The position numbers were made by a program, and so were the translations under genes. From a virus (lineage: Duplodnaviria > Heunggongvirae > Uroviricota > Caudoviricetes): a DNA stretch of 25,968 nucleotides. The notes beneath the pieces were generated by a model. It ran no database searches. It had not been told where the DNA came from and saw only the letters and a program-made list of their open reading frames with translations. The stretch covers positions 1-25,968 of the IMG/VR virus record IMGVR_UViG_2541047695_000005. One strand, 5' to 3'. Shown one piece after another: positions 9,240 through 20,529 of this stretch; the first letter of the stretch is position 1; every line of letters begins with the position of its first letter.

Positions 9240-9473
9240 ATGTCAACGAAGAACAAAACCCGCAGAACAACAACCCGCAACATCCGCTTTCCTAACCAAA
9301 TGATTGAACAAATTAACATCGCTCTTGATCAAAAAGGGTCCGGGAATTTCTCAGCCTGGGTCATTGAAGCCTGCCGCCGGAGACTGTGCTCAGAAAAAAG
9401 AGTTTCTCCTGAAGCAAACAAAGAAAAGAGTGACATTACTGAATTGCTCAGAAAACAGGTCAGACCAGATTGA
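9240..9473 (+). CDS. small ribbon-helix-helix-like DNA-binding protein (putative)
   Basis: 77-aa ORF with a basic N-terminus, then a strand-helix-loop-helix pattern (RNIRFPNQMIEQINIALDQKGSGNFSAWVIEACRRRL) typical of Arc/MetJ/CopG-type RHH proteins; opposite orientation to the late operon. Confidence 0.45.
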   Translation: MSTKNKTRRTTTRNIRFPNQMIEQINIALDQKGSGNFSAWVIEACRRRLCSEKRVSPEANKEKSDITELLRKQVRPD

Positions 9474-9530
9474 AGCAATTTAGATAATCGTGCAGACTAC
9501 GCCCCCTCATATCACATGGAAGGTTTATCT

Positions 9531-9941
9531 ATGGATCAGGTAGTCATTTTTAAACAAATATTTGATAAAGTTCGAAACGATTTAAACTATCAATGGTTTT
9601 ATTCTGAGCTAAAACGTCACAATGTCTCACATTACATTTACTATTTAGCCACAGAGAATGTTCATATTGTATTAAAAAATGATAATACAGTGTTATTAAA
9701 GGGCCTAAAAAACATTGTGTCTGTCAAATTTTCAAAGGATAGGCATCTTATAGAAACGACCTCTAATAAGCTGAAATCCAGAGAGATCACATTTCAGGAA
9801 TACAGAAGAAACCTTGCTAAAGCAGGAGTTTTTCGGTGGGTTACAAATATCCACGAACAAAAAAGATATTACTATACCTTTGATAATTCATTACTCTTTA
9901 CTGAAAACATACAGAGCACATCACAAATGTTTCCACACTAA
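9531..9941 (+). CDS. DUF1398 (YbcV/YdfO-like) family protein, putative
   Basis: Second ATG of the track ORF has the better RBS (GGAAGG, 7-nt spacing); the C-terminal AGVFRWV motif and the cos-proximal position resemble the YbcV/YdfO family of K-12 lambdoid prophages. Assigned from memory. Confidence 0.45.
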
Positions 9942-10243
9942 ACCATAACGTCCGGTTTCTTCTACCCCTGCACCGGACTGGCTGACATGAAGAGCAACCC
10001 CGCGTTCAGTTGACACGTTAATAACCCGGTGTGCATCGTTTTTGATTATTCCCGCACACTCACGCAGAAGGAATTCCCCGTCGGGCTACGGTCATGGTTA
10101 ATGCGGGAATACGGCGACGATACAGCGCATGATGTGTCAGGCTTGAATACCTTTATCCGTTAAAAGGGATATCAGTTAAGTTATCCCGTGCAGGGTATAA
10201 GCCATTATCAAGCCCCCCGTAGATAGGCTTTGTAATGACATCT

Positions 10244-10768
10244 TCAATTAATCAGCAGTTCAGGCTGTGTCACCTGCAAGATGTATTCATGCTCGACAGC
10301 CAGGACACGCTTCTCTTTCTTCCGTTCGTTCATTAACCGACTGCCGATCGTACCTTTCAGCTTTGAGCGTGTTTCTTTGGTGGCGTAGCGGTGCTGCATT
10401 TCTTCGCCAATTGCCATGCGGCGGCTCAGTTGCTCTGCCATCCAGTTGAATGCTGCGATATAGCTCTCCTTGATTGCCGCAGCAGCTTTCCCGGTGAACC
10501 CCATCACAACCATGATCCAGCCATCTTTCGTCAGGCTGTACATCGGGCGAACCTTGCCCTGCTCATCGATATAATCAGCCGACGCAAAATTGCGTTGGCT
10601 AAACTCACGCGAGCAATCAGCCTTAACCTGCTCGATTTTCCTGAGAACATCACCGTGTCGCTTGCCGAAGTACTTGGCAATTTTTCTGGATGTGGTAACG
10701 ACCTCTCCGTTTTTGGCTTGCACCATTTCTCGGAAGTCGAAGGCTGGAATAACTGAATGATTATTCAT
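10244..10768 (-). CDS. Rha-family phage regulatory protein (antirepressor-like)
   Basis: Internal ATG (residue 82 of the track ORF) preceded by AAAGGTAAAG; the N-terminus MNNHSVIPAFDFREMVQAKNGEVVTTSRKIAKYFGKRHGDVLRKI fits the Rha N-terminal pattern (GE..TTSR.IA..FGKRH..VLR.I). The 81-codon upstream extension looks non-coding. Confidence 0.5.
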   Translation of the reverse strand: MNNHSVIPAFDFREMVQAKNGEVVTTSRKIAKYFGKRHGDVLRKIEQVKADCSREFSQRNFASADYIDEQGKVRPMYSLTKDGWIMVVMGFTGKAAAAIKESYIAAFNWMAEQLSRRMAIGEEMQHRYATKETRSKLKGTIGSRLMNERKKEKRVLAVEHEYILQVTQPELLIN

Positions 10769-12213: not shown

Positions 12214-12486
12214 ATGGACAATAGCACCATTTCTCTACAGGAGTTGCTCGACTGCATTTCCAAGCTTCGGGATGATGTAAATGCCCTTACTGTCGCATTT
12301 TCATATCTGGCATTCTCAATTCCCAAGGAACAAATGCAACCAACACTGGCATCGCTCCAGCTTGAATCACTCAACCCCAAATGGTCCCAGCAACAACAAA
12401 ATTCTTTCAAGTGGCTGGCGGTATTACTGGAAGAAAAATATGCTGGTGAAATTACCATTTCGGCGGAGTCTTCAGTGAACCAGTAA
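12214..12486 (+). CDS. hypothetical 90-aa protein, opposite strand inside the lysis cassette
   Basis: ATG at 12214 preceded by GAGAGGA at 6-nt spacing; protein-like composition (MDNSTISLQELLDCISKLRDDVNALTVAFSYLAFSIPKEQ...). The antisense ORF 12189..12521 has a Ser/Cys/Trp-rich composition typical of non-coding frames. Confidence 0.4.
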   Translation: MDNSTISLQELLDCISKLRDDVNALTVAFSYLAFSIPKEQMQPTLASLQLESLNPKWSQQQQNSFKWLAVLLEEKYAGEITISAESSVNQ

Positions 12487-12796
12487 TTCTTCCCGGCAGT
12501 TTTCCTTTGTAGGTTATCCACACACCCTGCGCCTCTAAAATTATGGGGCGCTTTTCCGGTGACTGCTCATCCCCTTCACATAACCCGGCAGCAACATCCA
12601 GGAAGACCTGTCTGATGCTCCTTCTGGCTGCTGCCTCATAAAACTCCAGCGCGGCACCTTCAACACGGTCCAGCGAGATGTCCAGGTCTAAAATTTCACC
12701 GTCAAAGCGTTTTTTGTCCCGTAACGCTAAAGTTACCGTAACTTTATTCTCAAAATTGCGGATCCCTTTCACAATCAGTTCATAGTTTTGAGTCAT
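12452..12796 (-). CDS. YdfR-like (DUF1327) protein between holin and endolysin
   Basis: 114-aa ORF MTQNYELIVKGIRNFENKVTVTLALRDKKRFDGEILDLDISLDRVEGAALEFYEAAARRS...; position and N-terminal sequence resemble Qin YdfR; RBS GGAGAG 7 nt upstream. The C-terminal about 35 residues differ and overlap the convergent ORF 12214..12486. Confidence 0.55.
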   Translation of the reverse strand: MTQNYELIVKGIRNFENKVTVTLALRDKKRFDGEILDLDISLDRVEGAALEFYEAAARRSIRQVFLDVAAGLCEGDEQSPEKRPIILEAQGVWITYKGKLPGRITGSLKTPPKW

Positions 12797-12800
12797 TGAA

Positions 12801-13016
12801 TTACTCTCCCCGTGCCGCCTTACGACGGTCCTCTCTGATTTTGAAATACAGGTTAGTCAGATATGTCAGCAGCCCAAACAGCAGACTTCCCAGCACGCCT
12901 ATTGCCGCCCACTGAGACGGGGAAACCCTGTCCAGCAACTGCAGGAACCAGTAGCCCGTTCCCACCGCTGACGTGGTGTATGACACACCTGTTGTGATTT
13001 TTTCCATCTGGTCCAT
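12801..13016 (-). CDS. S: holin/antiholin, phage-21 S-type pinholin with dual start
   Basis: From residue 36 of the track ORF: [71 protein letters not shown], 71 aa; two in-frame Met codons three codons apart (13016 and 13007), two TM helices and a charged C-terminus, near-identical to S21 as I recall it. Confidence 0.85.
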
Positions 13017-13165
13017 ACCCCGTCTCCCGTTATCCGGAAGCTGACAACAATAAAAAAGCCACCAGTTAACTACTGATGGCTCTGATAACTCATGCAAGCG
13101 TCTCAGACGACCCACTGACACTACCGGTGAGTTTAACGATACCTTCCATTTGACTGGCTCACTTT

Positions 13166-13327
13166 TTATGATGATGCCGGTGCATTTATCTCCAGCGCCA
13201 GACTTTCTATCTCAACGCCATACGTTGCATTTTTGGTAATATCCGTCAGCGTCAGTGCATTTAGTCCCACTGCCAGACTGTCTTTAATGGCCTGGAATGC
13301 CGGGCCAGTACGATGACGTAGTATCAC
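13166..13327 (-). CDS. hypothetical small protein (53 aa), GTG start coupled to the upstream stop
   Basis: My hand translation gives GTG overlapping the TGA of the upstream gene (GTGA) and an open frame to TAA; it is below the track's 60-aa cut-off and unverified. Confidence 0.2.
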
Positions 13328-13512
13328 TCCGGCTCAGTTGCACCACTGACCACCACATCACCTTCTGCTGCAATCGCCTGCATCAGGGTATAAGGGGTTA
13401 TGGCCACCGGACTACCAAACGGCTGCCAGCCCTCTTTCAGTTTATGTGTCAGCTTTTCCGCAAGATCTGACGGCGGCGCCGCCCTGACAACATCATAGTG
13501 TTTAAATGCCAT
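13324..13512 (-). CDS. small conserved phage protein (DUF1737-like) upstream of the holin
   Basis: ATG at residue 5 of the track ORF with GGAAAG RBS; MAFKHYDVVRAAPPSDLAEKLTHKLKEGWQPFGSPVAITPYTLMQAIAAEG fits the short GWQP.G family commonly found just upstream of lambdoid holins. Confidence 0.5.
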   Translation of the reverse strand: MAFKHYDVVRAAPPSDLAEKLTHKLKEGWQPFGSPVAITPYTLMQAIAAEGDVVVSGATEPE

Positions 13513-13772
13513 GGTTCTTTCCACTATCTGAAAAATAATTCTTTAAAATACCTGACATGTAATACAGAAAAAACACAAAACTATACCTTAAATAAAAACC
13601 TGATTATCAAGCAGATATGCATGGATAAACTACAAGACGAGATATAAACCACCCTGCATTTAAATAAACAATAAACAACATCAGAAAAATAATTCTGCTC
13701 TATGGTTTACATTCAAAAATATCATTTATACTTTTCAGGACATCACCAGCAAGGCATAAACAAGGAAACCAA

Positions 13773-14108
13773 ATGAAGTGGATTGTGATTGATACAGTTA
13801 TCCAGCCATCATGCGGAATATCTTTTTCAGTCATATGGAGTAAAATAAAATTAATAATCTGGTATCAATCGGATGCTTTCTTACCTCCTGAAAGTATATT
13901 TACACTGACTCACACAGGCATCATGCTCAATAACAAAGTGCTACCTGTAACCATTTACAACGTAGTACCATTCAATAAAACATTCTGGAATTTAATCAAA
14001 AACAGCCAGGAATGCCCTACAAATACAGATAACGTATTGAATGAATGCTTTAATAACCGTTGCACTCTGCAAATATGTCCTTATGGACTAAAACAACAAA
14101 GTCCATAA
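13773..14108 (+). CDS. hypothetical Cys-rich 111-aa protein (moron, own promoter)
   Basis: ATG preceded by AAGGAA at about 7 nt; upstream TTTACA-15 nt-TATACT promoter-like motif at about 13706-13732; very AT-rich; C-terminal Cys pattern [26 protein letters not shown]; a hairpin (CAGCCCCTC-CGGA-GAGGGGCTG) about 35 nt downstream. Confidence 0.4.
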
Positions 14109-14555
14109 GGAGTTTACTCACATCTGACAAAATCAATATAAACAGCCCCTCCGGAGAGGGGCTGGAGAGTGGCGCTATGTGCCATTGCATGGTGCCGGGT
14201 GCCTCCCGGTGAATTCAGTACCAGCACCTGAATCCGCGATTATCCCATATACCTACTCGCTGATTGCCCCTCCGCACAGGGGGATTCACCATGCCAGTTT
14301 CTTTTAACAAACTCCCCGCAAACCAGACAACAGTCAACCGCCTGAATTGTGAAGTATTTAAAAATTTCTCCCGCTAACTGATACCCGGCTAACAGTCTGG
14401 CGTTTTCTTTTTCAGCAACGGAAAAGCAACAACCACCACACCTGCCACCAGCACACCGTCAGCCAGCACTGACATTATCCGGCTGCTGCAATGCCATTCA
14501 CAAAAACAGTAAGCAATCACTTTTTACCGTAACAGGTGATAATCCAGATATGTAT

Positions 14556-14909
14556 CTACCCCAGATGAGTAATCCGAAGTTCATCCATACCACAGGTCCT
14601 GGCTATTCTGTTGTACTCCTGAACAAGAGCAAATAATTCTGAATTAGCAACCATGAACTCATCGCTAACCCTCTGTATAGCATCACTATTCAGAATAATA
14701 ACGTCTCTTCCCGAAAGACGATCAGGAGTACAAAACAAAACTGTCAAACGGCTGAAGGCCTTTGCTCGTGCTGCATTGACTATATCAATACGCTGCCTAA
14801 GGATGAAACACCCCGACGCCTCATCAATATTCACTCTACCCACACCATATGAATGATAAATATTTAATGCTGAAAAAACCATTAGACGGTATAACAAACA
14901 CTCAATCAA
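14556..14909 (-). CDS. hypothetical ORF (possible gene remnant)
   Basis: 117-aa track ORF with TTG start and no convincing RBS; the region has mixed composition. Reported at low confidence only. Confidence 0.2.
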   Translation of the reverse strand: MIECLLYRLMVFSALNIYHSYGVGRVNIDEASGCFILRQRIDIVNAARAKAFSRLTVLFCTPDRLSGRDVIILNSDAIQRVSDEFMVANSELFALVQEYNRIARTCGMDELRITHLG

Positions 14910-15019
14910 TACTTAACAGAACTTTTATTTTTGACAAACATATAATATTTTCAACAAGATCCTGAGCCAAGTATATTTCAGTATAAGGCTCTGCCGGAAG
15001 GAATCTGGAAGAATGAATA

Positions 15020-15095
15020 TGGCGCGCTGTACTGGATTTGAACCAGCGACCTGGCGATTATGAGTCGCTCGCTCTCACCACTGAGCTAAAGGACC
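15020..15095 (-). tRNA. tRNA-like gene, anticodon CAT (Ile2/Met-type), acceptor stem unpaired - probable pseudo-tRNA
   Basis: The minus strand aligns arm by arm with the E. coli tRNA-Ile2 cloverleaf (D-arm GCTC-AGTGGTGA-GAGC, anticodon loop CTCATAA, T-arm GCTGG-TTCAAAT-CCAGT, encoded CCA), but the 5' acceptor GGTCCTT cannot pair with the 3' ACAGCGC. Confidence 0.5.
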
Positions 15096-15130
15096 GGGAG
15101 CAGAATAATAACGGTCCGTAATTAATTCCG

Positions 15131-15158
15131 CAATAAAAAACCCGCTCGGCGGCGGGTT
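15131..15158 (-). terminator. tR'-like intrinsic terminator downstream of Q
   Basis: Minus strand: AACCCGC-CGCCGA-GCGGGTT followed by TTTTTATTG. Confidence 0.5.
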
Positions 15159-15197
15159 GTAGAAACTCTTCTAACGTCAGGCATAAAACGCCCATCG

Positions 15198-15233
15198 TTA
15201 TGACGAATTTACCACAGATTCCGGAAAAATCAA
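15198..15233 (-). promoter_or_regulatory. pR'-like late promoter (putative Q-utilisation region)
   Basis: Minus strand TTGATT, 16-nt spacer, TGgTAAATT (extended -10) beginning immediately after the Q stop; about 60 nt upstream of the terminator, resembling lambdoid pR'/tR' units. Confidence 0.45.
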
Positions 15234-15238
15234 CCTTG

Positions 15239-16060
15239 TTACCTAGTTACCTTTTTTAACTGCCGCTCAGCCCATGCTTCTTCAATATCAAACCGGGTCA
15301 CCAGCGCATCATAGAATTTCTTAACTGTTTTTTCCCATGACGCGCGTGTTATCTGGTTTGTCACCTCGCATATAGCATTAAATGCCTCCGTTGATGGTAG
15401 CCTTTCATAGCCACGACCACCACAACGCTGGCAGTCTCTGATAACAGGCATACCACGTTTTACCGACTCTTCACGATGAATGGCGACACCACGCCCACGG
15501 CAATCCTTACAGGCGGTGGAAACCTCACCCTTCCCGCCACACTCCGGACAGGCAACTTTTACCACCTCCCTGACTTTTTTCCATTCTTCCCAGTAAGACG
15601 GATACACACCTTTCGTACACTTTGCCCATACCGGCGGCTTACCATCCGGATACTGGACCTTGTTTGTAAAAACTACGCTTTCAATAAATTTTTCCCCATA
15701 GCAACAAGGGCACAGCTTTTTACTCGCTGCGCTGCGGGCATAATCCTCAAAAGCGCACGAAGCCATAATGCGCATCACTACCGGTTTTATTTCTGCCGGA
15801 AGTTTTCTCAACGCCGCCACACGATCGCACCGACTGAGTGCATAATCTGCCAGTAATTCTGTTGCCCGCGCCCTGTCATTCATACTGATGCCCATCTTCC
15901 CCAGGAACGCAGAAAACCCCATCTCAGCCCGATTCTGTGTCATGCCCTGCGCGGCCATCACATCAGTGATACTCAGCGCATCTTTTGACGTTGAGGCCGA
16001 TGCATCGGTCAGGCAAGGGGATTTTGGGGAGTAGTATTTCGGTAAATCTTCCAGTTTCAT
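15239..16060 (-). CDS. Q: late antiterminator Q (QuuQ/phage-82-like family)
   Basis: 273-aa ORF; N-terminus (..PKYYSPKSPCLTDASASTSKD.LSITDVMAAQGM..) and Cys-x-x-Cys-Gly-x-Gly repeats (CPECGGKG, CKDCRGRG, CQRCGGRG) resemble Qin-type Q as I recall it; it sits directly upstream of the pR'/tR'-like unit and downstream of rusA. Confidence 0.65.
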   Translation of the reverse strand: MKLEDLPKYYSPKSPCLTDASASTSKDALSITDVMAAQGMTQNRAEMGFSAFLGKMGISMNDRARATELLADYALSRCDRVAALRKLPAEIKPVVMRIMASCAFEDYARSAASKKLCPCCYGEKFIESVVFTNKVQYPDGKPPVWAKCTKGVYPSYWEEWKKVREVVKVACPECGGKGEVSTACKDCRGRGVAIHREESVKRGMPVIRDCQRCGGRGYERLPSTEAFNAICEVTNQITRASWEKTVKKFYDALVTRFDIEEAWAERQLKKVTR

Positions 16061-16431
16061 TTTTTGACCTGCTCTTCATGCATTATGGGGTAAATCTTCA
16101 CCCCCAGACGTCCACCAGATACTGGCTGACCACGAACGATATTGATTTCATCAAACTGCTCATCGTCCATTAACACTCCCGCATGCGTCAGCGCATCCAG
16201 CGGTGCTTTCAGGATATTGTCCAGGTCGCGACGACGCTTATCCGGTGGCTCTGCAATCACCTTTATCGCCAGCCTTCCGGACAGGCTTAATTTCAGCCGC
16301 TGCTGGCGAACAATAAGCGCCACAGCACGGCGATAACGCTTTCCCTCCTCCGAGATAAAATATGTGCTGCCACGGCGTCGCCAGTAAGTGTTCACCGTCG
16401 GCGGGTAAGGTAAAACCAAATCTATGAGCAT
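16057..16431 (-). CDS. rusA: Holliday junction resolvase RusA
   Basis: 124-aa ORF with the RusA pattern (LPYPPTVNTYWRRRG...PDKRRRDLDNILKAPLDALTHAGVLMDDEQ...SGGRLGVKI); stop overlaps the Q start. Confidence 0.85.
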   Translation of the reverse strand: MLIDLVLPYPPTVNTYWRRRGSTYFISEEGKRYRRAVALIVRQQRLKLSLSGRLAIKVIAEPPDKRRRDLDNILKAPLDALTHAGVLMDDEQFDEINIVRGQPVSGGRLGVKIYPIMHEEQVKK

Positions 16432-16443
16432 CAGTCACCTCTT

Positions 16444-17493
16444 TTACCCAAGCACGCCAGTTGCAAAGGCGTGATCAAGAAAACGAAAAATTAAATCAAC
16501 CTGAGAACCATGCTTTTCTTCGAACGCCAGCGGATCCGCATGAAGCTCGTTGTGATGCTCCCGACACAGCGGTAGCGTGAAAATATCGTGAGATTTTGTC
16601 CCCATTCCGCCCTGACCATGACCAATCAGGTGATGGGGATCGTCGGCTGGCTTACCACAACACGCACACGGCTGTGTCTTCACCCAGCGTGTGTATTTCT
16701 CGTTAACCCAGCGGCGACGTTTAGGTCGTTTCATGAAAGATTCCGGAGACTCAGGATCAACGGCAATGCTGACCACCGTCTTTTCCTGTGGTGGGTTCTG
16801 TTGCTGGTGGGCGTGAGGCAGCGGCGCAAGATTTTTTGTGCGCTGTTTCAGTATGCTGGTGGCGGTCTGCTCTCCCGGTACGATGTCGCTTTCACGGTAC
16901 ATTGAGCGGATTTTTTCCGCACGCAACCCCAGCGAACGACGTAATACCGCTTCCGGTAGCGCGTCCGCCACCTGATTGCGGACCGCCCACCAGGATAATT
17001 CAGCCAGAGATAATTCACGCTCCTGCGTACCGCTTATTGCGTGACCGATGACGTCAATCATCCATGCTGACAGGTTTTGATGAGCAAGTTGCTCGAGTGA
17101 TTCGGATGTCTGGTCACGCAGCTGGTTGTCGCAGTGCCAGCACAACACCATTGCGCCGGTACCATAACGGTGAATGACGGTTTCGCTGTGATGATAATCG
17201 CCGTGTGGCCACTGGCAGGATTTAATATGGCGCAACAGCCAGTCAGACAATGCACCAGCACCACCAGCAGCACGAATCACCCGTGCGTTACTGAAAAACG
17301 GCAGCAATGTTTTGTCTTCCACCAGCGGCTGGCGAGCGGCAGGAACGACCCCGGACGGCAGATTACGCATGCTTTTCGGTTCCGGCTCCACCAGTAACCG
17401 GGTATTGTGGAATACCGGCATGGATTCACGGCCCGGCTTAACGATCACCAGCCCGAGTTCCGGTACCAGAACAGGTCGAAGTAATACCCGCAC
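16444..17493 (-). CDS. DUF968 family protein (YdfU-like) with C-terminal HNH-like Cys/His motif
   Basis: 349-aa ORF; the C-terminus CACCGKPADDPHHLIGHGQGGMGTKSHDIFTLPLCREHHNELH is an HNH/zinc-finger-like signature; length and position next to Q resemble Qin YdfU. Confidence 0.6.
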   Translation of the reverse strand: MRVLLRPVLVPELGLVIVKPGRESMPVFHNTRLLVEPEPKSMRNLPSGVVPAARQPLVEDKTLLPFFSNARVIRAAGGAGALSDWLLRHIKSCQWPHGDYHHSETVIHRYGTGAMVLCWHCDNQLRDQTSESLEQLAHQNLSAWMIDVIGHAISGTQERELSLAELSWWAVRNQVADALPEAVLRRSLGLRAEKIRSMYRESDIVPGEQTATSILKQRTKNLAPLPHAHQQQNPPQEKTVVSIAVDPESPESFMKRPKRRRWVNEKYTRWVKTQPCACCGKPADDPHHLIGHGQGGMGTKSHDIFTLPLCREHHNELHADPLAFEEKHGSQVDLIFRFLDHAFATGVLG

Positions 17494-18231: not shown

Positions 18232-18387
18232 TTACTCCTCAGGTTCGTAGACTGTGAAGACAGCGACCTCCGTCTGGCCGGTTCGGATTCGTACCTCGCA
18301 GAGGTCTTTCCTCGTTACCAGTGCCGTCACTATGACGGTTAAACAGATGACGATCAGGGCGATTAACATCGCCTTTTGCTGCTTCAT
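18232..18387 (-). CDS. hok: Hok/Gef family type I toxin
   Basis: In-frame ATG at residue 20 of the track ORF gives MKQQKAMLIALIVICLTVIVTALVTRKDLCEVRIRTGQTEVAVFTVYEPEE (51 aa), near-identical to E. coli HokD as I recall it. Confidence 0.85.
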   Translation of the reverse strand: MKQQKAMLIALIVICLTVIVTALVTRKDLCEVRIRTGQTEVAVFTVYEPEE

Positions 18388-18444
18388 AGCCTGCTTCTCC
18401 TTGCCTTTCGGCACGTAAGAGGCTAACCTAGATTTGCCGTTCAT
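18232..18444 (-). CDS. mok: mok-like N-terminally extended frame (70 codons) overlapping hok
   Basis: The same frame extended upstream by 19 codons; 70 codons equals the classical mok length in hok/mok/sok loci. Confidence 0.5.
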   Translation of the reverse strand: MNGKSRLASYVPKGKEKQAMKQQKAMLIALIVICLTVIVTALVTRKDLCEVRIRTGQTEVAVFTVYEPEE

Positions 18445-18500
18445 AGATTGAGCCTCAGATTAATGTTAAGCGTCTTGCAGGACGCGTAATGTTAACTGGG
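18430..18500 (+). ncRNA. sok: putative Sok-like antisense RNA (bounds approximate)
   Basis: Plus-strand TTGCCT-17 nt-TAACCT at about 18401-18429 would start a transcript antisense to the mok start region; a GCGTC-TTGCAG-GACGC hairpin lies at about 18471-18487. Inferred from hok/sok architecture, not verified. Confidence 0.3.
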
Positions 18501-18562
18501 GCTTTTCTCTATCTGCCTTTGGTGTTCATGCCTGAGACAGATAGCCTCAAGCACCCGCAGCC

Positions 18563-18591: not shown

Positions 18592-18991
18592 TATGAAATC
18601 AGTCAGAAAGGCGATCCATAAGAACAACAGCAAGGCAATAAATTGCCATTACAGCAGCAATAGCCAGCGCACATTTGAGAACCAGCACCACAACCTCCTG
18701 TATTGGACGTACACCAGTCCTGATAAATATGAGGCTGTCTCGTCAGTGATTCAATACAACTATTGGGTATAGTTTCTGTGATTTTGTTCTGTAGAAATGG
18801 AACATAATAACCTGTCACCACCAGCACTTCTTTAAATACGCCAAGTCCGACGCAAGCTAACCTTCTAGCCCGCTTTGAGCGAAGAACGGACTGAGTAATT
18901 CAGGCCGTTAGCGACACTATGACATCATTAGCAACCAACTAGGAGTTGGTAATAGATGAGTTAATTAATTGATTAAAAACCGACGATTTTA

Positions 18992-19019
18992 CTAGATTAC
19001 GGGAAGAAGAAAGGCCGCT
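18992..19019 (-). terminator. intrinsic terminator after the 65-aa gene
   Basis: Minus strand AGGCCG-TACCAG-CGGCCT followed by TTCTTCTTCC. Confidence 0.35.
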
Positions 19020-19054
19020 GGTACGGCCTCCCAGAGACTAGTCTATTGTTATGC

Positions 19055-19252
19055 TTAGAAACGCTTTTCTATCTCTTTTTCTCTTTCGTTTATTGCATCG
19101 TCAATGATTTTTTTTGCTGAATTAATTTGTGGTGTTTTTTCTGGTAATACATCTTCAAGATCTTTGGCAATTTTCTTTAATTTATCGATTTCTTTAGTTA
19201 AATCAGTTACAGATTTATCCGCTATTGACTTTGTCATTTTTCCATATTCCAT
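19055..19252 (-). CDS. hypothetical small coiled-coil protein
   Basis: 65-aa ORF, Lys/Glu/Asp-rich helical composition (KEIDKLKKIAKDLEDVL...), AT-rich, followed by its own hairpin terminator; no family recognised. Confidence 0.35.
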   Translation of the reverse strand: MEYGKMTKSIADKSVTDLTKEIDKLKKIAKDLEDVLPEKTPQINSAKKIIDDAINEREKEIEKRF

Positions 19253-19425
19253 TCAATTTATTTATCAATCAGTTACCCGTAAACCTTATCATGGATTCCA
19301 ATTATCGACAGCTGGGATTTTTACTTTCTTGATCTGCCCCAGGCGAATGACATATCCCCATTAACCAATGTCCGCTCCTAGCACTTAGTAGACATTAATA
19401 GATTGTAAGCGTTCCCGTCATGTAG

Positions 19426-19806
19426 CGGTCACCGATTGGTGATGAATTGAAGCGGATCATTGATGAAAGTCGCAATAACGTGGCCAGCCCATTTATCGTT
19501 CACCAGATCCCGGAACGGCAGGTTAAACGCAGCAAAGAAGTTTCTCATCCCACTCAAGTTGCACCAGACTATTTGAGTCGGTCGTTTTCAGCTACGCGTG
19601 ACAAGCTGGGTTTATATGACAAACGGCCGATGGATGAAAGGCCAACCTTTCACGAAATTCGCGCCTTAGCAGCACATCTTTTTGATCAGCAGGGCATCGA
19701 TCCACAAGGACGAATGGCACACAGCGATGCGAAATCAACTAAAATCTACACGCAAAACCATATCGACTGGGTTGTAGTTCCACATGGAGAAATTAAAGCC
19801 AGCTAG
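19426..19806 (+). pseudogene. tyrosine integrase, C-terminal catalytic fragment only (truncated)
   Basis: The open frame starts right after an in-frame stop, with no N-terminal domains; it contains the integrase box-II-like segment RPTFHEIRALAAHLFDQQGIDPQGRMAHSDAKSTKIYTQ (H-x-x-R ... H ... Y). Confidence 0.6.
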
Positions 19807-19899
19807 CACCAAGTAAGGCATAGAATTTTATTAACCAAGGAGCATATGACCAGTAATTAATTCTTACCGGAAAGTTAGCCCTGCTAAAATTAATATTAA

Positions 19900-19936
19900 C
19901 AAATAAAAAAATAGGGGCAAATATTTATATTTGCCC
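19900..19936 (-). terminator. intrinsic terminator immediately downstream of the two-gene nucleotidyltransferase/2TM operon
   Basis: Perfect 10-bp inverted repeat GGGCAAATAT/ATATTTGCCC about 12 nt after the stop codon, followed on the minus strand by a long U-tract (TATTTTTTTTATTTG). Confidence 0.5.
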
Positions 19937-19947
19937 TCGCAACATAT

Positions 19948-20529
19948 TTATCTTCTTTTCAGTTCCTTGGGAAGAAAAGCATCTATTTCTTCTTCAGAAA
20001 ATGTTAAATCTTCTTTGTTTTTTAATGCGTCCTGTGCTTTTTTATAAGCTTCAAATGTTGTACTAGGAGAGCCTGAATACACTGAATGTAAACTCTCGAG
20101 TAACGAATCCCGCTCTGACTGCAATTGCTCGATTGGTTTTTCACCCATTGCTAAGTCTGTAAGCAATGATAAATACTTTTCTCGGATTAACCAGATCTCA
20201 TTTGCAGCCTGCTTATGTTTTTGCGCCAACTCACCAAGGTCATAATCTTTGGTATAAGCGTTAAGAATGAGAAGCAGTGTTGATACAACAATCCCAACCC
20301 CCGTGCCTACTTCACCCGCGCCGAAAAAAGTTGCTAGAAAGCCTCCAGTAGTTAAGGCGGAGAGAATTATTTGCCAAAACTTTATAGAAGATAGTCGAGA
20401 TAGGAGAATGTCTGAGCATTTTTCATGCGTCTTATGTGAGTAAACGACCCGACCATAACACTCTCTGATCTGCCCTTCTAAAACCCTTCTAGATTCAGGT
20501 GTATCCTTAGTCTGGAAATGTTGATCCAT
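19948..20529 (-). CDS. SLATT-like two-transmembrane-helix effector protein (putative)
   Basis: ATG at residue 20 of the track ORF with GGGAG RBS, overlapping the upstream gene by 23 nt; 193 aa with a soluble N-terminus, two adjacent TM helices (WQIILSALTTGGFLATFFGAG and GVGIVVSTLLLILNAYT) and a helical C-terminal half, the SLATT architecture. Confidence 0.55.
   Translation of the reverse strand: MDQHFQTKDTPESRRVLEGQIRECYGRVVYSHKTHEKCSDILLSRLSSIKFWQIILSALTTGGFLATFFGAGEVGTGVGIVVSTLLLILNAYTKDYDLGELAQKHKQAANEIWLIREKYLSLLTDLAMGEKPIEQLQSERDSLLESLHSVYSGSPSTTFEAYKKAQDALKNKEDLTFSEEEIDAFLPKELKRR

What the first reader, a model, noticed from the sequence alone, without database searches (positions are those of the whole stretch)
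13525..15020. AT-rich moron block in the Q-to-holin cargo slot (the Stx-toxin position), with a promoter-equipped Cys-rich ORF
Between the tRNA-like gene downstream of Q and the lysis genes lies about 1.5 kb of strongly AT-rich DNA unrelated to the flanking modules. It contains a plus-strand 111-aa ORF (13773..14108) with its own promoter-like -35/-10, a good RBS, a Cys-rich C-terminus and a downstream hairpin, plus an opposing weak ORF and a GC-richer stretch that may be gene remnants. In Stx phages this exact slot carries the toxin genes and is expressed at Q-dependent late levels. No Shiga-toxin-like sequence is present; the cargo is unrecognised.
Basis: partly seen in the sequence, partly recalled or inferred. 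Interest (0 to 1): 0.55.

Follow-up and report, generated by a model that had tools for sequence, protein, structure and literature searches.

The report
Prophage iraL gene, already characterised
The "unrecognised" Cys-rich ORF is iraL, a known prophage gene whose protein blocks RssB and so protects the stress sigma factor RpoS from degradation; the DNA around it holds a known small-RNA gene and small phage genes, so the finding is real but ordinary.

Summary
Window 13525-15020 is the most AT-rich stretch of the window. It lies between the Q antiterminator/tRNA and the lysis genes of a lambdoid prophage, whose late genes run on the minus strand.

The cargo is not unknown. The 111-aa ORF (13773-14108, +) is 111/111 identical to WP_000871291.1, the CFT073 protein c1429 = IraL. 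IraL is an experimentally characterised RssB anti-adaptor that stabilises RpoS in log phase (Hryckowian 2014). Its published 5'-RACE mRNA start matches window 13740-13771 exactly.

The other features also have explanations:
- The "downstream hairpin" is the terminator of a convergent sRNA gene, STnc100 (14134-14323, -), which also accounts for most of the "GC-richer stretch".
- Upstream on the late strand lie a truncated DUF3927/TciB-like ORF (14389-14520) and a 92-aa gene that RefSeq does not annotate (14556-14834, phrog_2873, dN/dS 0.30).
- These two ORFs, not iraL, occupy the position of stx2AB.

Stx2 phages carry stx2AB, STnc100 and an iraL paralogue together. iraL is antisense to the late transcript, so it cannot be expressed from Q-dependent late transcription.

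Verdict: already known, low interest.

The parts
13773..14108 (+). iraL, an IraM-family RssB anti-adaptor of 111 aa
   Evidence: 111/111 identical to WP_000871291.1, which is annotated at CFT073 1343465-1343800 in the potB-island prophage. CFT073 iraL = c1429 (PMC12890032). NCBIfam NF007393 scores 162 bits against a cut-off of 121. PDB 8TWD IraM matches at 9e-32. Identity is 62% to K-12 IraM.
13704..13772 (+). iraL sigma-70 promoter, transcription start (A13740), 5' UTR and RBS
   Evidence: The 5'-RACE mRNA start published for CFT073 (PMC4045071) equals window 13740-13771 exactly. The -10 TATACT is at 13727-13732 and AGGA at 13763-13766. The upstream region cannot be aligned to that of K-12 iraM.
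14134..14323 (-). STnc100 prophage sRNA gene, convergent with iraL
   Evidence: Rfam RF02076, 132.4 bits against a gathering score of 47, full model 1-206. It occupies the same position in an Stx2 phage, mEp460 and vB_EcoS-640R1. MFE is -74.6 kcal/mol, z = -2.3. The family is transcribed in EHEC and one copy was Northern-verified (PMC5331693).
14143..14164 (-).
   Evidence: A 9-bp stem with 7 GC pairs, followed by TTTATATTGATTTTG on the minus strand only.
14389..14520 (-). DUF3927 / TciB-like small membrane ORF of 43 aa, N-terminally truncated relative to 50-aa homologues
   Evidence: Pfam PF13064 at 1.7e-27 and phrog_1470 at 7.8e-13. It lacks the first roughly 20 residues seen in L013 and L016 homologues. 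RefSeq annotates it as WP_000562553.1.
14556..14834 (-). orf92, a conserved phage gene of unknown function not annotated by RefSeq. The ORF is open up to TTG 14909 (117 aa); the GTG at 14834 fits the family's length.
   Evidence: phrog_2873 at 5.5e-57. Homologues range from 21 to 63% identity. dN/dS is 0.30 over 92 codons, with third-position excess. The AF2 model has pLDDT 89.4 and shows a helical hairpin. No informative fold match was found.
15020..15094 (-). Chimeric tRNA: the 5' part of tRNA-Ile(CAT) fused to the 3' end of the second tRNA-Arg by a 174-bp deletion
   Evidence: Alignment with SK1144. ARAGORN calls it tRNA-Met(cat). The Rfam tRNA match covers only model positions 7-64, at 46.8 bits against 72.5 for intact copies. 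The acceptor-stem halves do not pair (read from the sequence).
15133..15233 (-). Late promoter PR'-like (-35 TTGATT 15233-15228, -10 TAAATT 15211-15206) and tR' terminator (15158-15139 plus T-run)
   Evidence: Sequence read; terminator found. It lies directly after the Q stop codon at 15239-15241. The assignment as PR'/tR' is an inference from lambdoid architecture.
13166..13524 (-). Remnant of a nanS-p type 9-O-acetyl-sialate esterase gene (DUF1737 N-terminus plus C-terminal tail; about 520 codons deleted)
   Evidence: tblastn of Stx2-phage nanS-p: residues 1-90 match 13512-13285 (66% identity, 2.6e-29) and residues 610-640 match 13273-13181. Pfam DUF1737 at 4.1e-17. RefSeq marks it as an incomplete pseudogene.

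Best explanation
The block is the accessory region between the late promoter and the lysis cassette of a CFT073 potB-island-type lambdoid prophage.

Its one plus-strand gene is iraL. It is transcribed in the lysogen from its own sigma-70 promoter (start at A13740), independently of and antisense to the phage late operon. IraL is a small cytoplasmic protein with a PmrD-like beta-barrel core (residues 1-78). It binds the response-regulator-like adaptor RssB, which prevents RssB from delivering RpoS to the ClpXP protease. RpoS therefore accumulates during exponential growth.

On the late (minus) strand the order is:
- PR'/tR'
- a tRNA array, damaged here
- orf92
- a truncated DUF3927/TciB-like ORF
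- the sRNA gene STnc100 with its own terminator
- beyond iraL, a decayed nanS-p esterase gene
- the holin

Shown here by computation: identity of the protein, promoter and locus to CFT073, family membership, and synteny with Stx2 and other lambdoid phages.

Shown in the literature for the identical protein: the transcription start, RssB binding, and RpoS stabilisation.

Inferred: that the gene is expressed and active in the genome this window comes from, and that Q-dependent late transcription runs antisense through iraL.
For: - The protein is 111/111 identical to WP_000871291.1, the protein at the CFT073 potB-island prophage locus.
- Window 12400-15051 is 99.6% identical to CFT073 without gaps.
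- The published iraL mRNA 5' end equals window 13740-13771.
- NCBIfam IraM subfamily scores 162 bits against a cut-off of 121. PDB 8TWD (IraM residues 1-78, the IraM variant crystallised in complex with RssB according to the preprint read) matches at 9e-32.
- 10 of the 13 IraM residues reported to contact RssB are identical in this protein, and the other 3 are T13S, H63N and I64V.
- IraL function is documented: RssB interaction by two-hybrid and co-purification, and effects on RpoS level and stability in log phase (PMC4045071).
- iraL expression is seen in CFT073 transcriptomes and proteomes (PMC7157518; PMC12890032).
- 864 of 5426 complete E. coli genomes hold at least 80% of 13400-15150.
Against: - No expression data exist for this particular genome.
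- The generic promoter scan did not flag the iraL promoter, because the -35 is poor or the spacer is 15 bp.
- My Pfam scan gave no hit for the protein, although the precomputed tables list PF11183 (PmrD) for its homologues.
- Hryckowian et al. report that IraL contacts RssB differently from other anti-adaptors, so transferring the IraM-RssB crystal contacts is only approximate.
- The prophage shows decay around the gene (chimeric tRNA, esterase remnant, truncated DUF3927), so the context is not pristine.
Confidence: 0.93

Rival explanations
1. The ORF is an unrecognised secreted, disulfide-rich toxin or effector that takes the place of Shiga toxin and is produced at Q-dependent late levels on prophage induction.
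For: The block lies between Q/tRNA and the holin. The protein has four C-terminal cysteines. The DNA is AT-rich and looks foreign.
Against: - The ORF is on the strand opposite Q, the tRNA and the lysis genes, so late transcripts are antisense to it.
- It is identical to cytoplasmic IraL.
- Its N-terminus aligns residue for residue over positions 1-78 with the crystallised IraM core, whose structure paper describes a beta-barrel. It is therefore not a signal peptide.
- Stx2 phages carry an iraL paralogue in addition to stx2AB.
- There is no similarity to Stx.
Confidence: 0.01
2. The gene is IraM proper, as RefSeq labels it: a PhoP/PhoQ-controlled anti-adaptor induced by Mg2+ starvation, rather than the log-phase IraL.
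For: The RefSeq product name is 'anti-adapter protein IraM'. The NCBIfam IraM subfamily hit is above its cut-off. Identity to K-12 IraM is 62%.
Against: - It is 100% identical to the CFT073 protein that was named IraL and shown to act in log phase.
- The 230 bp upstream cannot be aligned to the K-12 iraM upstream region. It resembles the upstream region of the Stx2-phage paralogue instead.
- The literature reports no overlap between the iraL and iraM sequence groups (PMC4045071).
- PhoP dependence of this promoter was not tested here.
Confidence: 0.04
3. The whole block is decaying prophage junk. The ORFs, iraL included, are no longer functional in this genome.
For: - The tRNA is chimeric through a 174-bp deletion.
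- The nanS-p esterase has been reduced to two small ORFs.
- DUF3927 lacks its N-terminal segment, and the TerB-like gene found between orf92 and DUF3927 in other phages is absent.
Against: - iraL, its promoter and its UTR are intact and 99.6% identical to the functional CFT073 locus.
- The same block is kept in 864 complete genomes.
- orf92 shows purifying selection (dN/dS 0.30).
- STnc100 matches its full covariance model.
Confidence: 0.03

Closest known systems
IraL of uropathogenic E. coli CFT073 (c1429; Hryckowian et al. 2014, mBio, PMC4045071)
   Same: The protein sequence is identical (111/111), as is the 5' UTR and transcription-start sequence. The prophage context is the same: Q, tRNA, DUF3927, STnc100, iraL, DUF1737 remnant, holin.
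   Different: CFT073 has an IS200C between Q and the tRNAs and three intact tRNAs. The window has no IS and a single chimeric tRNA. There are 10 mismatches over 2652 bp.
IraM (YcgW) of E. coli K-12, a PhoP-dependent anti-adaptor; structure 8TWD
   Same: Same family. Identity is 62%, with the same length class and the same invariant C-terminal Cys quartet. 10 of 13 RssB-contact residues are identical.
   Different: The upstream regulatory DNA differs. The genomic location differs: K-12 iraM lies next to e14/icdC. IraL acts in log phase and is reported to bind RssB differently (PMC4045071).
iraM-like gene of Stx2 phages (e.g. Stx2_EH2201 BCI49726.1)
   Same: Identity is 75%. Orientation is the same (opposite to the late genes) and so are the neighbours: STnc100 on one side and the nanS-p esterase on the other. 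The upstream region is similar.
   Different: It is 107 aa. It sits downstream of stx2AB, whereas the window has orf92 plus DUF3927 in the stx position and only a remnant of the esterase.
STnc100 / PasD family of prophage sRNAs (Rfam RF02076)
   Same: Full-length covariance-model match. The position is the same: downstream of Q, the tRNAs and the cargo, and upstream of the esterase and holin.
   Different: No target or function is established for this copy. Its promoter was not identified here.
Tci-like module (TerB-like phrog_632 plus TciB-like DUF3927 phrog_1470) preceded by phrog_2873 in other lambdoid phages
   Same: orf92 and DUF3927 occur in the same order, on the late strand, upstream of the lysis genes.
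   Different: The TerB-like middle gene is missing and DUF3927 lacks its N-terminal segment. STnc100, iraL and an esterase remnant are interposed before the holin.

Membership tests
IraM/IraL/RssC anti-adaptor family | Sequence match to the curated family model above its cut-off | tested here: met
   NCBIfam NF007393 at 4.7e-48, 162 bits against a cut-off of 121, covering residues 1-110 of 111. phrog_4407 at 3e-73.
IraM/IraL/RssC anti-adaptor family | PmrD-like beta-barrel core (IraM residues 1-78) as in the IraM-RssB crystal structure | tested here: met
   Tested by sequence only. Residues 1-78 align without gaps to 8TWD chain A at 9.1e-32. No structure was predicted for this protein here.
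IraM/IraL/RssC anti-adaptor family | Conservation of the IraM residues that contact RssB (clusters I-III: I4, I6, W22, K26, I42; T13, C14, F18, W30; I61, Y62, H63, I64) | tested here: met
   10 of 13 are identical. The substitutions are T13S, H63N and I64V (alignment; residue list from bioRxiv 10.1101/2023.01.07.523045).
IraM/IraL/RssC anti-adaptor family | Binds RssB and stabilises RpoS against ClpXP | not testable with these tools
   Shown experimentally for the identical CFT073 protein (PMC4045071). Not tested for this genome.
IraL specifically (as opposed to IraM) | At least 95% identity to CFT073 iraL, and the iraL promoter and UTR | tested here: met
   100% protein identity. The 32-nt 5'-RACE sequence is identical. 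The locus is 99.6% identical.
Shiga toxin (AB5) cargo | Similarity to StxA or StxB | tested here: not met
   tblastn of stx2A and stx2B against the whole window gave a best E of 0.96.
Moron in the strict sense (independently transcribed lysogenic-conversion gene inside a late operon) | Own promoter active in the lysogen, and atypical base composition | tested here: met
   GC is 0.32-0.35 against a window mean of 0.50. The TSS was mapped by 5' RACE in CFT073 on identical sequence. No dedicated terminator for the plus strand was found.
STnc100 sRNA (RF02076) | Covariance-model score above the gathering threshold, with an intrinsic terminator | tested here: met
   132.4 bits against 47. Terminator at 14164-14143.
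DUF3927 / TciB-like | Pfam PF13064 match; full-length two-segment hydrophobic peptide of about 50 aa | tested here: inconclusive
   The Pfam match is 95.6 bits against a cut-off of 25. However, the first roughly 20 residues of the 50-aa homologues are replaced or absent.

The most novel reading that the evidence does not exclude
The interval that corresponds exactly to stx2AB (14353-15019) holds a 92-aa gene that RefSeq does not annotate (phrog_2873). It is under purifying selection and folds as a confident helical hairpin with an invariant loop motif (F-S-x-L-x-V-x-[FY]-x-x-P-D).

In other lambdoid phages this gene precedes a TerB-like and a TciB-like gene directly upstream of the holin. It could be the first gene of an uncharacterised, widely conserved late-operon module acting on the envelope or on lysis timing. 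That module would survive here in a reduced form.

Separately, the four invariant cysteines in the IraM/IraL tail, which was removed from the crystallised construct, could form a metal or redox site that controls anti-adaptor stability.
Probability: 0.3. Interest if true: 0.35.

Novelty: already known. Interest (0 to 1): 0.12.

Why it matters
It matters little as a discovery. iraL, its promoter, its biochemical target and its distribution were published in 2014, and RefSeq already annotates the gene, although under the name IraM.

The useful outcome is the corrected map:
- iraL is a lysogen-expressed gene antisense to the late operon, not a Q-driven toxin substitute.
- The hairpin and the GC-rich patch belong to the sRNA STnc100.
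- Stx2 phages carry stx2AB in addition to an iraL paralogue and STnc100.

Two small loose ends could interest specialists. One is the unannotated but conserved orf92 in the true stx position. The other is the invariant Cys quartet in the anti-adaptor tail, which structural work has so far left out.

Tried and rejected
- A Pfam scan of the 111-aa ORF gave no hit at E <= 0.1. NCBIfam, PHROGs and PDB sequence searches resolved its identity instead.
- The generic promoter scan did not list the iraL promoter, and overall it found no more sites than shuffles did (6 against 5.8). The promoter claim therefore rests on the published 5' RACE.
- Fold searches of the orf92 model against PDB and BFVD gave only generic two-helix and coiled-coil matches (best E 0.06 and 0.3). 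No function can be inferred from them.
- A PADLOC scan of orf92, DUF3927, IraL and the TerB-like neighbour gave no hits.
- tblastn of orf117 against the phage collection found only mEp460_ev081.
- A search for the same tRNA deletion junction in 5426 complete E. coli genomes found no one-piece match among the top-ranked hits. The deletion appears to be private to the source genome.
- A search of the Pas-sRNA preprint supplements for the 13055-13083 hairpin sequence and for the STnc100 core found nothing.
- A first look at CFT073 1.38-1.43 Mb hit the wrong (icd) prophage. The potB prophage was found at 1.33-1.38 Mb.
- I considered whether the PR'-tR' short transcript is StxS-like. I did not pursue it, because this Q is a different type (273 aa, Pfam Antiterm) and the unit is much shorter.

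Full report
**Orientation and context**

The phage genes around the finding lie on the minus strand. From high to low coordinates they are:
- a DUF968 gene (16444-17493)
- RusA (16057-16431)
- a 273-aa Q antiterminator (15239-16060; Pfam Antiterm 5.8e-54)
- one tRNA (15020-15094)
- the finding (13525-15020)
- a DUF1737 ORF (13324-13524)
- a P21-type holin
- a YdfR/DUF1327 gene
- a lysozyme

Directly after the Q stop codon there is a PR'-like promoter (TTGATT, 16 nt, TAAATT; 15233-15206). It is followed by an intrinsic terminator at 15158-15139. Calling these PR' and tR' is an inference from lambdoid architecture. The whole window is a lambda-like prophage of the type integrated at potB in E. 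coli CFT073.

**Check of the observation**

The block has GC 0.391 against 0.496 for the window. It is the lowest 1.5-kb stretch, and 13525-14133 (GC 0.322) is the lowest 600-bp stretch. It is not homogeneous. 14134-14323 has GC 0.553 and 14389-14520 has GC 0.492.

The 111-aa ORF is present as described. An ORF of that length arose in only 5 of 2000 shuffles of the AT-rich part. The RBS, the -10 element, the four C-terminal cysteines and the hairpin 35 nt after the stop codon are all there.

**What the ORF is**

RefSeq annotates the same sequence in hundreds of genomes as 'anti-adapter protein IraM', WP_000871291.1. The window's protein is 111/111 identical to it.

That accession is the protein at CFT073 1343465-1343800, in the prophage next to potB. 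Hryckowian et al. place iraL on the CFT073 potB island (PMC4045071), and a later paper gives its locus tag as c1429 (PMC12890032).

The 5'-RACE sequence they report for the iraL mRNA is ACATCACCAGCAAGGCATAAACAAGGAAACCA. It is identical to window 13740-13771, immediately before the ATG. Window 12400-15051 is 99.6% identical to CFT073 without a gap.

Independent family tests agree:
- NCBIfam NF007393 scores 162 bits against a cut-off of 121.
- PDB 8TWD (IraM 1-78, the IraM variant crystallised in complex with RssB according to the preprint read) matches at 9e-32.
- Identity to K-12 IraM is 62%. The paper's ClustalW figure is 58.9%.
- 10 of the 13 IraM residues that contact RssB are identical.

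The ORF is therefore iraL, a characterised gene.

**How it works**

According to PMC4045071, IraL interacts with RssB in two-hybrid and co-purification assays. It raises the level and stability of RpoS in logarithmic phase. The gene is transcribed from a sigma-70-type promoter and is enriched in UPEC and Shigella.

The structural work on the paralogue IraM (bioRxiv 10.1101/2023.01.07.523045) shows a PmrD-like beta-barrel. It bridges both RssB domains and remodels the inter-domain linker, which blocks hand-off of RpoS to ClpXP.

That this happens in the genome the window comes from is an inference from sequence identity.

The 230 bp upstream of iraL cannot be aligned with the upstream region of K-12 iraM. 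It does resemble the upstream region of the Stx2-phage paralogue. This fits the different regulation reported for IraL and IraM.

**The rest of the block**

*STnc100.* The hairpin at 14143-14164 has its T-run on the minus strand. It ends a full-length match to the Rfam family STnc100 at 14134-14323 (132 bits against a gathering score of 47). This sRNA gene is convergent with iraL and accounts for the core of the GC-richer stretch. It folds into a multibranch structure closed by GCAUGGUG/CACCAUGC, followed by the terminator. STnc100 is a multi-copy prophage sRNA. Eleven copies are listed in EDL933, they are transcribed, and one was verified by Northern blot (PMC5331693). A recent preprint relates it to the Hfq-associated PasD sRNAs. 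Its function is not established.

*DUF3927.* Upstream on the late strand lies a 43-aa DUF3927 ORF (14389-14520; Pfam 1.7e-27; phrog_1470 'TciB-like'). Compared with 50-aa homologues it lacks the first hydrophobic segment.

*orf92.* Further upstream lies an ORF open from 14909 to 14556 (117 aa, TTG start). RefSeq leaves it unannotated. Evidence that it is a real gene:
- phrog_2873 matches at 5.5e-57.
- Homologues range down to 21-40% identity, are 91-106 aa long, and start at the position of the GTG at 14834.
- dN/dS is 0.30 over 92 codons against a 56-59% identical homologue, with an excess of third-position changes.
- An AlphaFold model built on that alignment is confident (pLDDT 89.4) and shows a two-helix hairpin.

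The fold is too generic to suggest a function, and PADLOC has nothing. In more distant phages the order is Q, orf92, a TerB-like gene (phrog_632), DUF3927, then the holin. The window therefore carries a reduced version of that module.

**Relation to Stx phages**

In Stx2a phage Stx2_EH2201 the late-strand order is:
- Q
- a methylase
- three tRNAs
- stx2A and stx2B
- STnc100 (149.5 bits)
- on the opposite strand, a 107-aa 'iraM' gene, 75% identical to the window's IraL
- the nanS-p esterase
- the holin

The iraL-type gene and STnc100 are thus neighbours of stx, not substitutes for it. The interval in this window that is positionally equivalent to stx2AB is 14353-15019, which holds orf92 and DUF3927.

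The two small ORFs at 13166-13524 are what remains of the esterase gene. nanS-p residues 1-90 and 610-640 match there. No similarity to StxA or StxB exists anywhere in the window.

Because iraL is antisense to the late operon, Q-dependent read-through cannot express it. Whether such read-through represses it is untested.

**Other occupants of the slot**

- mEp460_ev081 has orf92, DUF3927 and STnc100 followed by a phrog_5772 protein, and no iraL.
- vB_EcoS-640R1 has two STnc100 copies plus iraL.
- The CFT073 icd prophage carries a porin gene between Q and the holin.

The region is a mosaic of interchangeable accessory genes, as expected for lambdoid phages.

**Verdict**

The cargo is a known, named and biochemically characterised anti-adaptor. 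It is not in the toxin's exact position, and it is not under late control. Novelty: already known. Interest: low.

The only unexplored items are the unannotated orf92 family and the invariant C-x10-C-x4-C-x4-C tail of the IraM/IraL family. That tail was deleted from the crystallised construct.

Noticed in passing
window 15020-15094 (-): The single tRNA is a chimera. A 174-bp deletion between the similar T-arm sequences (GGTTCAAATCCAG and GGTTCGAATCCAG) fuses the 5' part of tRNA-Ile(CAT) to the 3' end of the second tRNA-Arg and removes two tRNA-Arg genes. The acceptor-stem halves (GGTCCTT and ACAGCGC) no longer pair, so it is probably non-functional. No one-piece match to the junction appeared among the top hits in 5426 complete E. 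coli genomes.
   Followed up: yes
window 13166-13524 (-): The DUF1737 ORF (66 aa) plus the following 53-aa ORF are the N-terminal 90 and C-terminal 30 residues of a nanS-p type 9-O-acetyl-sialate esterase, as found in Stx2 phages. About 520 codons are deleted.
   Followed up: yes
window 13055-13165 (-): A roughly 100-nt intergenic stretch between the esterase remnant and the holin ends in a strong terminator-like hairpin with a T-run (13083-13055, 12-bp stem). The Pas-sRNA preprint places PasA/PasC sRNA genes in this position. There was no Rfam hit, and no sequence was available for comparison.
   Followed up: partly
window 13773-14108 (+), residues 81-105: Cys81, Cys92, Cys97 and Cys102, together with Pro82, Ile101, Pro103 and Gly105, are invariant in all IraM/IraL-family sequences aligned, down to 54% identity. 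Cys14 in the RssB-contact cluster varies between C and S. The tail was truncated in the IraM-RssB crystal construct and described there as less conserved. It may be a metal or redox site.
   Followed up: partly
L002 5357-5680 (Stx2a phage Stx2_EH2201), and many Stx2c phages: Stx2 phages carry a third IraM/IraL paralogue (75% identical to IraL, 65% to IraM) on the strand opposite stx2AB, just beyond STnc100. A toxin phage may therefore also bring an RpoS-stabilising factor. I did not check whether this has been studied.
   Followed up: partly
window 18382-18556 (-): There is a full-length sok antisense RNA (Rfam RF01794, 110 bits). In related genomes hokD is annotated next to it. This is a hok/sok type I toxin-antitoxin locus in the early region of the prophage.
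   Followed up: no
window ~9300-9900, ~18700-19300, ~19700-20300: These are further AT-rich islands (GC 0.33-0.36 in 500-bp windows). They were not examined and may hold other accessory genes or regulatory regions.
   Followed up: no
window 15095-15238 compared with L011 (CFT073) 9450-10303: CFT073 has an IS200C transposase gene inserted between Q/PR' and the tRNA array. The window and strain SK1144 do not.
   Followed up: partly
window 13773-14108 (+): My Pfam-A scan returned no family for IraL at E <= 0.1. The precomputed annotation of its homologues lists PF11183, which I recall as the PmrD family. This is a tool or version discrepancy and not a biological signal.
   Followed up: no
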